A DNA stretch of 64,000 bases, taken from NCBI RefSeq assembly GCF_056746865.1, contig NZ_CM163382.1; one strand, written 5' to 3'. Made by a program: the position numbers. Of the stretch, positions 30,001 to 33,000 are shown one piece after another. Position 1 is the stretch's first letter. Every line of letters starts with the position of its first letter.

Positions 30001-33000
30001 CACGTTTAGCCGCAGCCGGTGACTGGCCTGCTTTAAGCAGCTTCTTTGCAGCAATCAGTTCTTCTCGCGCTTCTGCCAGGCTGATACCGTCACGCCCATA
30101 CTGCCCGATTACCAGTGTTTCGCGGCGACCGTTGATACGGTAGTCATAGCGAAACGAGACCGTGCCTGACGTAAGCACAGCTACATACAGCCCGTCACGA
30201 TCGGAGACCTTGTACAGTTTGTCCTGCGGCTTGAGGTTTTTTAATTTTGTATCGGTAAGCACAATTCACCCGTATAGAAACCATTTTCATGACGGTATGA
30301 GAGTATACCTTTAAGGTAATACCGTCACCTGTACCGACGAAAAATATGGTGTAGAGTGAATAGAAATGAATACATAAAAACAAAAACCCTCTGTAAAAAC
30401 AGAGGGTTGAGTTAGTATCTGAATAGGAATGATTTGCTATGAGTTAGCTGTTAATCATTCCCACTCAATAGTCGCTGGTGGCTTGCCGCTGATGTCATAC
30501 ACCACGCGGGAAATACCGTTCACTTCATTGATAATGCGGTTGGAAACGCGACCGAGGAAGTCATACGGCAGGTGCGCCCAGTGTGCGGTCATAAAGTCGA
30601 TGGTTTCGACAGCACGCAGAGAAACAACCCAGTCATACTTACGACCATCGCCCATTACACCAACGGAACGTACCGGCAGGAAGACGGTGAACGCCTGGCT
30701 GACTTTGTCGTACAGGTCCGCTTTACGCAGTTCTTCAATAAAGATGGCGTCAGCACGGCGCAGCAGGTCGCAGTACTCTTTCTTCACTTCGCCCAGTACA
30801 CGAACGCCGAGGCCTGGTCCCGGGAACGGGTGACGGTACAGCATGTCGTACGGCAGGCCCAGCTCCAGACCAATCTTACGCACTTCGTCTTTGAACAGCT
30901 CTTTCAGCGGTTCAACCAGCCCCATCTTCATCTCTTTCGGCAGGCCGCCCACGTTGTGGTGAGATTTGATGACGTGTGCTTTACCGGTTGCAGATGCGGC
31001 AGATTCAATAACGTCAGGGTAGATAGTGCCCTGCGCCAGCCACTTCACGTCTTCCAGTTTCAGTGCTTCTTCATCGAATACTTCAACGAAAACGCGCCCG
31101 ATGATTTTACGTTTTGCTTCCGGATCGTTTTCGCCGGCCAACGCTGACAGGAAGCGAGCTTCTGCCGGAACGTGAACAATGTTCAGACCAAAGTGATCGC
31201 CAAACATATCCAGAACCTGCTCTGCTTCGTTGAGACGCAGCAGGCCGTTGTCGACGAATACGCAAGTCAGGTTTTTACCGATAGCGCGGTGCAGCAGCAT
31301 TGCGGTTACGGAGGAATCCACACCACCAGAGAGGCCGAGGATGACTTTATCGTCGCCTACCTGCTCGCGGATGCGAGCTACGGCGTCGTCGATAATTTTC
31401 GCTGGCGTCCACAGGGCTTCACACTGGCAGATATCACGCACAAAACGCTCCAGCATGCGCATACCCTGGCGGGTGTGAGTCACTTCCGGGTGGAACTGTA
31501 CGCCATAGAAGCGTTTTTCTTCGTTAGCCATAATGGCAAACGGGCAGCTTTCGGTGCTGGCTACGGTGACGAAGTCGGACGGGATAGCGGTAACTTTATC
31601 GCCGTGGCTCATCCAGACATCGAGCAGCGGTTTACCGTCTGCGGTCAGCGCATCTTCGATACCGCGAACCAGTGCGCTGTCGTTTACGACTTCAACCTGC
31701 GCGTAGCCAAATTCACGTTCGTTAGAGGCTTCAACGTGACCGCCCAACTGCATTGCCATGGTCTGCATGCCATAGCAAACGCCGAATACCGGTACGCCTG
31801 CTTCAAAGACATACTGCGGCGCGCGCGGGCTGTTTTCTTCGGTGGTGCTTTCCGGGCCGCCGGAAAGAATAATGCCGCTTGGGTTGAAGTCACGAATTTG
31901 TGCTTCTGTCACATCCCACGCCCACAGTTCGCAGTAAACACCCAGTTCACGCACGCGGCGCGCAACCAGTTGAGTGTACTGAGAACCGAAGTCCAGAATG
32001 AGGATGCGATGCTTATGAATGTTTTCCGTCATTGACGCTTATTCCGAGGCAAGTGAAACAGATAATATAAATCGCCCGACATGAAGTCGGGCGAAGAGAA
32101 TCAGGAGCCCAGACGGTAGTTCGGGGACTCTTTAGTAATGGTCACGTCGTGAACGTGGCTTTCCTGAATGCCCGCACCGCTGATACGTACAAACTCCGCT
32201 TTAGTACGCAGTTCGTCGATAGTACCACAGCCGGTCAGGCCCATACAGGAGCGCAGGCCGCCCATCTGCTGGTGAATGATCTCTTTCAGGCGACCTTTAT
32301 AGGCCACGCGACCTTCGATACCTTCCGGCACCAGTTTGTCGGCAGCGTTGTCACTCTGGAAGTAACGGTCAGAAGAACCTTTGGACATCGCACCCAGAGA
32401 GCCCATCCCACGGTAAGATTTGTAAGAACGGCCCTGGTAGAGTTCGATTTCACCCGGAGATTCTTCAGTACCCGCCAGCATGGAACCCACCATTACCGCG
32501 CTTGCACCTGCGGCGATAGCTTTGGCGATATCGCCTGAGAAACGGATACCACCGTCAGCGATAACCGGAATACCGGTGCCTTCCAGGGCTTCTACGGCGT
32601 CAGCAACGGCGGTGATCTGCGGAACACCTACGCCAGTCACGATACGAGTCGTACAGATAGAGCCAGGGCCAATGCCGACTTTAACCGCACTGCAACCAGC
32701 TTCTGCCAGAGCGCGTGCACCTGCAGCTGTTGCCACGTTGCCGCCGATGATTTGCAGATCCGGATATTTAGCACGGGTTTCACGGATACGTTGCAGTACA
32801 CCTTCTGAGTGACCGTGAGAGGAGTCGATCAGCAGAACGTCAACGCCTGCGGCAACCAGCGCGTCAACACGCTCTTCGTTACCCGCACCCGCGCCAACCG
32901 CTGCACCAACACGCAGACGGCCTTGCTCGTCTTTACAGGCGTTCGGTTTACGTTCCGCTTTCTGGAAGTCTTTCACGGTGATCATGCCGATCAGGTGGAA

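What the first reader, a model, noticed from the sequence alone, without database searches (positions are those of the whole stretch)
30263..30454. Prophage joins the chromosome immediately downstream of guaA
The integrase start (30262) lies 190 bp from the guaA stop (30455), and the guaA terminator hairpin (30385-30408) is intact inside this interval. This suggests site-specific integration at or just beyond the 3' end of guaA, with the attachment core within 30263-30384. The other prophage end is outside the window, so the direct repeat cannot be identified here.
Basis: inference. Interest (0 to 1): 0.4.

Follow-up and report, generated by a model that had tools for sequence, protein, structure and literature searches.

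The report
Known phage attachment site at guaA
This is the right-hand junction (attR) of an ordinary epsilon15/phiV10-type prophage in E. coli, joined to the chromosome through the already published 17-bp site that covers the last four codons and stop codon of guaA; the hairpin in the interval belongs to the phage, not to guaA.

Summary
The general idea, site-specific integration at the 3' end of guaA, is also right. Two specific claims are wrong.

- **Attachment core.** It is not in 30263-30384. It is AATCATTCCCACTCAAT at 30453-30469, which covers the last four guaA codons, the stop codon and 2 nt beyond. Homology to free phages ends at 30469, and homology to empty-site E. coli genomes begins at 30453. 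Two related lysogens carry the same 17-mer at their far end.
- **Hairpin.** It is not the intact native guaA terminator. All of 30263-30452 is phage DNA, the P arm of attP, with 3 of 208 mismatches to phage vB_EcoP_ZX5. The native terminator stays next to yfgI at attL, about 40 kb away. The phage hairpin has the same stem as the native one, which explains the misreading.

The 17-bp core, 190 bp from the integrase start, was shown experimentally for ZX5 (PMC9782041). That paper states that the same attP sequence had been proved for phiV10 and epsilon15. About 10% of complete E. coli genomes carry this junction. The finding is already known and of low interest.

The parts
30453..30469 (.). attR core (O), AATCATTCCCACTCAAT. 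It is the reverse complement of ATT GAG TGG GAA TGA + TT, i.e. guaA codons I-E-W-E, the stop codon and 2 nt beyond.
   Evidence: Phage homology ends at 30469 and empty-site homology begins at 30453. The same 17-mer is present in attB of TG1, attP of phiV10, epsilon15 and ZX5, and attL of two lysogens. It is identical to the published core attgagtgggaatgatt (PMC9782041).
30263..30452 (.). P arm of the phage attachment site (phage DNA between the integrase start and the core), 190 bp.
   Evidence: Over 30262-30469 there are 3 of 208 mismatches to ZX5 and 5 of 208 to phiV10. There is no similarity to the empty site except the hairpin stem.
30375..30408 (-). Phage-borne intrinsic-terminator-like hairpin, AACCCTCTGT-TTTT-ACAGAGGGTT (30385-30408), plus the U-rich tail (30375-30384), read in the guaA/int sense.
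   Evidence: Found by the terminator scan and by RNA folding. It is annotated as a rho-independent terminator in phiV10 and epsilon15. It is conserved in 8 P arms; the four variant cells keep pairing through G-U in this strand and none break it.
30420..30435 (.). Imperfect inverted copy of the core (TGAATAGGAATGATT), 17 nt from the core. Its direct-repeat partner TGAATAGAAATGA lies at 30357-30369.
   Evidence: a 16-pair stem with the core in the consensus fold. Its function was not tested.
30290..30327 (.). Candidate arm-type integrase sites ATACCGTCA: 30290-30298 (minus) and 30319-30327 (plus). Further copies lie inside int at 29742-29750 (minus), 29994-30002 (plus) and 30084-30092 (plus).
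   Evidence: Six copies in the window against 0.34 expected, and five of them lie within 600 bp of the core. The same 10-mers are annotated as integrase binding sites in epsilon15, and one is repeated in the P' arm of attP.
29012..30262 (-). Tyrosine integrase, 416 aa.
   Evidence: Pfam Arm-DNA-bind_3, Phage_int_M and Phage_integrase; PHROG 1 integrase. It is 99.5% identical to ZX5 Int, 99.3% to phiV10 Int and 86.6% to epsilon15 Int.
26460..26708 (+). AlpA-family small DNA-binding protein, the candidate excisionase.
   Evidence: Pfam Phage_AlpA; PHROG 66 'excisionase and transcriptional regulator'. The excisionase role is inferred.
30455..32032 (-). guaA (GMP synthase), intact. Its last 15 nt lie inside the core.
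   Evidence: The ORF and its translation end in ...PPATIEWE*; Pfam GATase and GMP_synt_C.
1..30469 (.). The part of the Uetakevirus-type prophage that lies inside the window (virion, packaging, replication, immunity, recombination and int modules). About 10-12 kb (tail spike, lysis genes, attL) lies left of the window.
   Evidence: 98.2% identity over 84% of window 1-25000 to phage vB_EcoP_ZX5. Annotation of near-identical lysogens. Core-to-core distances of 39.6 and 40.8 kb in relatives.

Best explanation
Window 30263-30469 is attR (P-O-B') of an epsilon15/phiV10/ZX5-type (Uetakevirus) prophage.

The phage tyrosine integrase (29012-30262) recombined the phage attP with the bacterial attB. Both share the 17-bp core AATCATTCCCACTCAAT, which is the last four codons, the stop codon and two following bases of guaA. 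Because the exchange happens inside this identity block, the guaA reading frame is regenerated unchanged.

Everything left of 30453 is phage DNA. It includes the 190-bp P arm with its candidate arm-type sites and a phage-borne intrinsic terminator at 30385-30408. Everything right of 30469 is chromosome. The native guaA terminator is not here: it remains beside yfgI at attL, roughly 40 kb to the left and outside the window.

Inferred, not shown:
- After integration the phage terminator takes over 3'-end formation of the guaBA transcript and shields int, which lies on the same strand directly downstream, from read-through.
- Strand exchange probably occurs within the central TCCCACTC.
- The AlpA-like protein at 26460-26708 is the likely excisionase.
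For: 1. Free-phage homology (36 phage records) ends exactly at query position 1458, which is window 30469. Empty-site E. coli genomes match only from about query position 554, which is window 30453.
2. Four-way comparison: attB of TG1 and attL of AP022222 are identical over the roughly 50 nt next to the core, native hairpin included; further out an IS200C in AP022222 breaks the match, so identity over the full 110 nt is 61%. attR of the window and attP of phiV10 share the left arm at 97%. attB and attR share the right arm at 95%. attL and attP share the right arm at 87%. Cross pairs are 24-27% identical, about chance.
3. A second lysogen, A357, has the same attL: native hairpin, then core, then P'.
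4. Polymorphisms right of the core follow the host lineage rather than lysogeny. A357 has the K-12 allele; the window and WP8 share another allele; the empty-site strain E13 has a third.
5. The P arm plus core differs from ZX5 at 3 of 208 positions, and Int is 99.5% identical. ZX5 is the closest phage to the rest of the prophage.
6. [quoted passage not shown] The paper states that the same attP had been proved for phiV10 and epsilon15 (PMC9782041). An epsilon15 integrase cluster targeting the guaA 3' flank is described in PMC8138268.
7. The hairpin is annotated as a terminator in phiV10 and epsilon15, detected here, and conserved across 8 P arms with only G-U-compatible changes.
Against: - The window's own attL and its own empty site could not be examined. 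The genome is not in the E. coli collection (best match 98.9%), so excisability and completeness of this particular prophage are inferred from relatives.
- The exact cleavage positions within the 17 bp are unknown.
- Terminator function and insulation of int were not measured.
Confidence: 0.95

Rival explanations
1. One reading: the hairpin at 30385-30408 is the native guaA terminator, the chromosome extends to about 30385, and the attachment core lies within 30263-30384.
For: The hairpin stem is identical to that of the native guaA terminator (25 of 27 nt), so from the window alone it looks like the host terminator.
Against: - Sequence 30263-30452 is contiguous and 97-99% identical to free phage genomes, hairpin included.
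- Empty-site genomes share nothing with the window left of 30453 except the stem.
- The spacer between stop codon and hairpin is 46 nt of phage sequence, against 27 nt of unrelated sequence in empty sites.
- The native hairpin is found at attL in two lysogens.
- No segment of 30263-30384 recurs at the other prophage end.
Confidence: 0.02
2. The element is not a phage but one of the other mobile elements that use the guaA 3' end: a GIsul2-type island, a PIME integrative mobilizable element, or a phage satellite.
For: Such elements exist at the same site (PMC9376610; bioRxiv 10.64898/2026.01.12.698999). Integrase homologues (46-54% aa identity over most of the protein) sit next to the guaA end in diverse Proteobacteria.
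Against: The window carries portal, capsid, terminase, tail or core-protein, replication and immunity genes that are 98% identical to the plaque-forming podovirus ZX5. Int is 99.5% identical to ZX5 Int.
Confidence: 0.02
3. The junction is as described, but this particular copy is a defective, no longer excisable prophage remnant, for example with a deleted or rearranged left end.
For: The left 10-12 kb and attL are not in the window. A relative, A357, has pseudogenised internal genes. Another strain has an integrase-less 3.7-kb island at the same site.
Against: In the window, int, the P arm, the core and the candidate excisionase are intact and near-identical to an inducible phage. The visible 30 kb is colinear with ZX5.
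Confidence: 0.12

Closest known systems
Escherichia phage vB_EcoP_ZX5 attP/attB (Uetakevirus; PMC9782041)
   Same: - Identical 17-bp core.
- Same 190-bp distance from the core to the int start.
- Int 99.5% identical.
- P arm plus core with 3 of 208 mismatches.
- Same target, the guaA 3' end.
- 98.2% nucleotide identity over 84% of window 1-25000.
   Different: The cargo between the methyltransferase and int differs: an AntA-like gene at 28330-28980 here, against a small hypothetical gene in ZX5. About 16% of window 1-25000 is not matched.
Phages phiV10 (E. coli O157:H7) and epsilon15 (Salmonella), the type members of the genus
   Same: Same core and the same attP layout: Rz/lysis genes, P', core, inverted core copy, terminator hairpin, arm-type sites, int. 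The terminator, IHF, integrase and RNase III sites are annotated in the deposited records.
   Different: For epsilon15 the P arm has 40 of 208 mismatches, Int is 86.6% identical, and the hairpin carries one G-U in the stem. The immunity and serotype-conversion genes differ.
GIsul2 and related genomic islands; PIME integrative mobilizable elements at guaA
   Same: They use the same guaA 3' end. The reported GIsul2 integration site GAGTGGGA is the centre of the 17-bp core (window 30459-30466). Some guaA-end elements in other genera also bring their own hairpin with a T-run right after the core. Integrase homologues are 46-54% identical over most of the protein.
   Different: They are not phages: they carry no virion genes and are mobilised by conjugation. 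Their arms and terminator sequence are different. Whether the 46-54% homologues are GIsul2- or PIME-type was not tested.
Phage 21 and e14 at icd, and P4-like elements at tRNA 3' ends (from general knowledge)
   Same: The same logic applies: integration into the 3' end of a conserved gene, with the element supplying sequence that keeps the gene intact.
   Different: Here only 15 coding nucleotides are involved, and they are identical in phage and host. What the phage replaces is the 3' UTR and terminator rather than coding sequence.

Membership tests
Uetakevirus (epsilon15/phiV10/ZX5) integration module at guaA | A 17-bp core attgagtgggaatgatt at the junction with the guaA 3' end. | tested here: met
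   Exact match at window 30453-30469, the only copy in the window. The core sequence is published in PMC9782041.
Uetakevirus (epsilon15/phiV10/ZX5) integration module at guaA | Core located 190 bp upstream of the int start, with a conserved P arm. | tested here: met
   30263-30452 is 190 bp. Over 30262-30469 there are 3 of 208 mismatches to ZX5 and 5 of 208 to phiV10.
Uetakevirus (epsilon15/phiV10/ZX5) integration module at guaA | An integrase orthologous to phiV10 or ZX5 Int. | tested here: met
   99.5% and 99.3% amino-acid identity over the full length.
Uetakevirus (epsilon15/phiV10/ZX5) integration module at guaA | A direct repeat of the core at the other prophage end (attL) in the same genome. 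| not testable with these tools
   attL lies outside the window and the genome is not in the collection. The feature is met in two related lysogens, AP022222 and A357.
Uetakevirus (epsilon15/phiV10/ZX5) integration module at guaA | Genus-typical virion and replication gene content. | tested here: met
   98.2% identity over 84% of window 1-25000 to ZX5. Capsid staple gp10, Bbp16 cement protein and a T7 gp14-like core protein are annotated in near-identical lysogens.
Tyrosine recombinase with arm-binding domain (P4-like; IntSXT subgroup, epsilon15 cluster) | Arm-DNA-binding N-terminal domain, central core-binding domain and C-terminal catalytic domain. | tested here: met
   Pfam PF13356 (4e-20), PF22022 (5.7e-12) and PF00589 (1.4e-19, profile positions 3-170 of 172).
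Tyrosine recombinase with arm-binding domain (P4-like; IntSXT subgroup, epsilon15 cluster) | Catalytic R...K...HxxR...H/W...Y residues. | tested here: inconclusive
   By inspection of the translation, the motifs VRKGE, HDMRRT, LAHE and AVYNKAEY are present. No structure-based alignment was made.
Intrinsic (rho-independent) terminator | A GC-containing stem-loop followed by a U-run on the transcribed strand. | tested here: met
   A 10-bp stem with 5 GC pairs, a 4-nt loop and the tail TTTGTTTTTA on the minus strand. It is the stable element in the fold (z = -5.2 for the 96-nt region). It is conserved with G-U-compatible changes. Termination activity itself was not tested.
   Empty sites carry AAAACCCTCTGTTACTACAGAGGGTTTTTT 27 nt after the stop codon. 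The window has a different loop, a 46-nt unrelated spacer and phage flanks. The native copy is retained at attL in lysogens.

The most novel reading that the evidence does not exclude
The phage P arm carries a copy of the host's own guaA terminator: the stem is identical and 25 of 27 nt match the E. coli native hairpin. On this reading the copy was captured from, or co-evolved with, the host. It would act as a built-in replacement terminator that ends the strong guaBA transcript and stops it from reading into int in the lysogen. Together with the inverted copy of the core, which can pair with the last guaA codons and stop codon in the mRNA (annotated as an RNase III site in epsilon15), lysogeny would rewrite the guaA 3' UTR. 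Unrelated guaA-end elements in other genera also bring their own hairpin and T-run directly after the core, so terminator replacement could be a general design rule for elements that target the ends of highly expressed genes.
Probability: 0.4. Interest if true: 0.25.

Novelty: already known. Interest (0 to 1): 0.1.

Why it matters
It matters little beyond correct annotation.

- The site, the core and the integrase family are published, and the junction occurs in about one in ten complete E. coli genomes.
- The useful outcome is a precise boundary for this prophage: phage DNA runs through 30452, the shared core is 30453-30469, and chromosome begins at 30470.
- A terminator-like hairpin next to a gene end is not proof of native sequence. 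Here the phage supplies a look-alike terminator and the real one is displaced by 40 kb.
- The extreme conservation of the 15-nt guaA end across bacterial phyla and archaea explains why several unrelated mobile elements share this target.

Tried and rejected
- **Direct repeats inside the window.** I searched 1-31000 for a repeat involving 30263-30454. None was found, and the listed families are short chance matches.
- **Second core copy in the window.** Allowing up to 3 mismatches gave only 6224-6240 (3 mismatches, inside a tail gene), which I take as chance.
- **The window's own genome.** I looked for it in the complete E. coli collection to read its attL. The best hit is 98.9% identical (A357), so it is not present and relatives were used instead.
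- **Differences just right of the core as phage-derived replacement coding sequence (as in phage 21 at icd).** I considered that the three differences at 30470, 30473 and 30479 relative to K-12 might come from the phage. This is rejected: lysogen A357 has the K-12 allele and empty-site strain E13 has a third allele, so they are host-lineage polymorphisms.
- **Direction of transfer of the hairpin.** I tried to decide between host-to-phage and phage-to-host by looking at native guaA downstream regions of other enterobacteria in the genome contigs sample. No clean empty-site enterobacterial locus was among the 120 returned; the 'Klebsiella' MAG locus L037 looks mislabelled. The question is left open.
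- **Literature.** The Kropinski 2007 epsilon15 paper (PMC2698709) is not held. A search for SPN1S with guaA returned nothing. One malformed literature query failed.

Full report
**What is in the window.**

The window is E. coli chromosome. guaA (30455-32032), guaB and xseA lie to the right of the finding. A tyrosine-integrase ORF lies at 29012-30262 on the same (minus) strand as guaA, and phage genes fill everything to its left as far as window position 1. The only tRNA is a phage-borne tRNA-Arg(TCT) at 13160-13236.
- int starts at 30262.
- The guaA stop codon is at 30455-30457.
- The single terminator-like site in 30100-30600 is the 10-bp stem at 30385-30408 on the minus strand, followed by TTTGTTTTTA.

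**Where the boundary is.**

A 901-nt query across the junction matched 5425 of 5426 complete E. coli genomes. Only 567 covered 80% or more of it. In the other sampled rows the match begins at query positions 551-560, mostly 554, which is window 30453, at the guaA stop codon. Conversely, a query from int through the junction matched 36 phage records, and in nearly all of the listed records the match ends at query position 1458, which is window 30469. The 17 nt shared by both kinds of match, AATCATTCCCACTCAAT (30453-30469), is therefore the core.

It occurs once in the window, once in each of the free phages phiV10, epsilon15 and ZX5, once at the empty site of strain TG1, and at both ends of the prophage in lysogen WP8-S17-ESBL-12 (NZ_AP022222).

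A register-anchored four-way comparison gives the classical pattern:

| Pair | Arm | Identity |
|---|---|---|
| attB (TG1) and attL (AP022222) | left | identical over the ~50 nt next to the core, native hairpin included; 61% over the full 110 nt because an IS200C interrupts further out |
| attR (window) and attP (phiV10) | left | 97% |
| attB and attR | right | 95% |
| attL and attP | right | 87% |
| cross pairs | both | 24-27%, about chance |

A second lysogen, A357, which carries the closest relative of the window's prophage, shows the same attL: yfgI, native hairpin, core, then the phage P' arm. Core-to-core distances are 40.8 kb in A357 and 39.6 kb in AP022222.

Substitutions just right of the core follow the host lineage, not lysogeny. 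So DNA to the right of 30469 is chromosomal and the exchange took place inside the 17-mer. The core is the reverse complement of ATT GAG TGG GAA TGA TT, and GuaA still ends ...PPATIEWE*.

**The hairpin.**

The empty site has its own hairpin (AAAACCCTCTGTTACTACAGAGGGTTTTTT in the guaA sense) 27 nt after the stop codon. The window has AACCCTCTGTTTTTACAGAGGGTTTTTG 46 nt after the stop, embedded in sequence unrelated to the empty site. That sequence is phage DNA:
- 30262-30469 differs from ZX5 at 3 of 208 positions and from phiV10 at 5 of 208.
- The hairpin is annotated as a rho-independent terminator in the phiV10 and epsilon15 records.

The stems of the native and phage hairpins are identical (25 of 27 nt), which explains why a reader without tools took it for the guaA terminator. 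Across eight P arms (E. coli, Salmonella, Enterobacter, Citrobacter, Superficieibacter) the ten stem pairs are never broken. The four variant cells are all U-A to U-G changes in the guaA/int-sense RNA. That fits an RNA hairpin read in that direction.

In the free phage the hairpin sits between the lysis genes and int. In the lysogen it sits between guaA and int. I infer that it ends the late transcript in the first case and the guaBA transcript in the second, and that it keeps read-through out of int in both. This was not measured.

**Other features of the P arm.**

- ATACCGTCA occurs six times in the window against 0.34 expected. Five copies lie within 600 bp of the core: 29742 (minus), 29994, 30084, 30290 (minus) and 30319. 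The same 10-mers are annotated as integrase binding sites in epsilon15, and one recurs in the P' arm. They are candidate arm-type sites.
- TGAATAGRAATGA occurs twice, at 30357 and 30420, on either side of the hairpin. The second copy is an imperfect inverted copy of the core and forms a 16-pair stem with it in the consensus fold. Epsilon15's depositors annotated an RNase III site there. Its function is unknown.

**The recombinase.**

The 416-aa protein has Arm-DNA-bind_3, Phage_int_M and Phage_integrase domains and matches PHROG 1. It is 99.5% identical to ZX5 Int. An AlpA-family protein at 26460-26708 matches 'excisionase and transcriptional regulator' PHROGs and is the likely directionality factor, which is an inference.

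**Comparison with what is known.**

The closest free phage to the rest of the prophage is vB_EcoP_ZX5 (98.2% identity over 84% of window 1-25000). The ZX5 paper reports the following (PMC9782041):
- The core attgagtgggaatgatt lies 190 bp from the 5' end of int.
- attB lies at the 3' end of guaA.
- attB, attL and attR were verified by PCR and Sanger sequencing.
- The same attP had been proved for phiV10 and epsilon15.

[quoted passage not shown] TL-2011b is also reported inserted in guaA (PMC3293862). GIsul2 uses GAGTGGGA at the guaA 3' end (PMC9376610), which is the centre of the 17-mer (30459-30466). PIME elements also use a guaA-adjacent attB.

**Prevalence and breadth.**

- 4567 of 5426 complete E. 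coli genomes have an intact empty site. In the split sites sampled, the left (yfgI-side) piece ends at the right edge of the core and the right (guaA-side) piece begins within 2 nt of its left edge.
- 567 genomes have the window-type int junction.
101 of these encode a GuaA C-terminus at the match. They span many bacterial phyla and several archaeal lineages.
- At least ten of these loci have an Int homologue (46-88% aa identity) immediately after the guaA end.

**Verdict.**

This is an ordinary, already described attachment junction. The only mildly new point is that the phage terminator shares its stem with the host terminator it displaces. The origin and function of that resemblance remain untested.

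Noticed in passing
window 30385-30408 versus L001 2953-2978 (TG1 empty site): The phage-borne terminator has the same 10-bp stem as the native E. coli guaA terminator (25 of 27 nt identical) but a different loop, spacer and flanks. This suggests capture of, or convergence on, the host terminator.
   Followed up: partly
window 30420-30435 with 30453-30469; P' arm in L004 2651-2687: Each half of the core has an imperfect inverted partner in the adjacent arm: TGAATAGGAATGATT in P and ATTGAGTG in P'. In RNA the P-arm copy can pair with the last guaA codons and the stop codon (16 pairs). Epsilon15's record annotates an RNase III site there.
   Followed up: partly
L009 (E. coli TB06052, NZ_CM129848.1) about 35-4015: The same yfgI-guaA site holds a 3.7-kb integrase-less insert with two DUF262-domain genes (defence-like). 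It is flanked by degenerate core copies, TTATTCCCACTCGAT and TCACTCCCACTCAAT. The last guaA codon is changed from GAA to GAG, which is synonymous.
   Followed up: partly
L027, L044, L046, L056, L083, L128, L130 (Providencia, E. albertii, Enterobacter, Stutzerimonas, Sheuella, Lelliottia): A second, unrelated conserved sequence follows the guaA stop in distant genera: TTTCGCGTCTGGCA...GCCCGCGTAATTGCGGGCTTTTTT. It has its own hairpin and T-run, and in three of these loci (L027, L056, L083) an Int homologue with 52-68% identity over the aligned part. It is probably GIsul2- or PIME-type elements that also bring a terminator.
   Followed up: partly
Genome-contig loci L012-L131: The 15-nt guaA end ATTGAGTGGGAATGA (IEWE-stop) is exact in at least 101 sampled species, from Firmicutes, Bacteroidota, Cyanobacteria, Chloroflexota and Proteobacteria to Thermoplasmatota and other archaea. 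This is an unusually conserved potential attB.
   Followed up: partly
window 27760-29011: The slot between the MT-A70 methyltransferase and int is variable cargo. The window and A357 have an AntA/AntB antirepressor-like gene (28330-28980), WP8 has a Ser/Thr phosphatase, and phiV10 has a DUF1382 gene.
   Followed up: no
window 13160-13236: A prophage-encoded tRNA-Arg (anticodon TCT) lies between the packaging and portal modules. It is also present in related lysogens and in the O157 typing phages.
   Followed up: no
L003 20076-20534 (NZ_AP022222): In this lysogen an IS200C copy sits between yfgI and the native guaA terminator, just outside attL.
   Followed up: no
window 35165-40450: A 1761-aa repetitive adhesin-like ORF lies next to xseA, in the sinH/sinI region. 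The corresponding gene in strain WP8 is an 8-kb pseudogene with an internal stop, so the window ORF may be a fragment of a larger gene.
   Followed up: no
window 6224-6240: A core-like 17-mer with 3 mismatches (AGATATTCCCACTCAAT) lies inside a tail gene. The shuffle expectation is 0.06 matches; one of 100 shuffles gave as many matches as the two seen in the window. I take it as chance.
   Followed up: no
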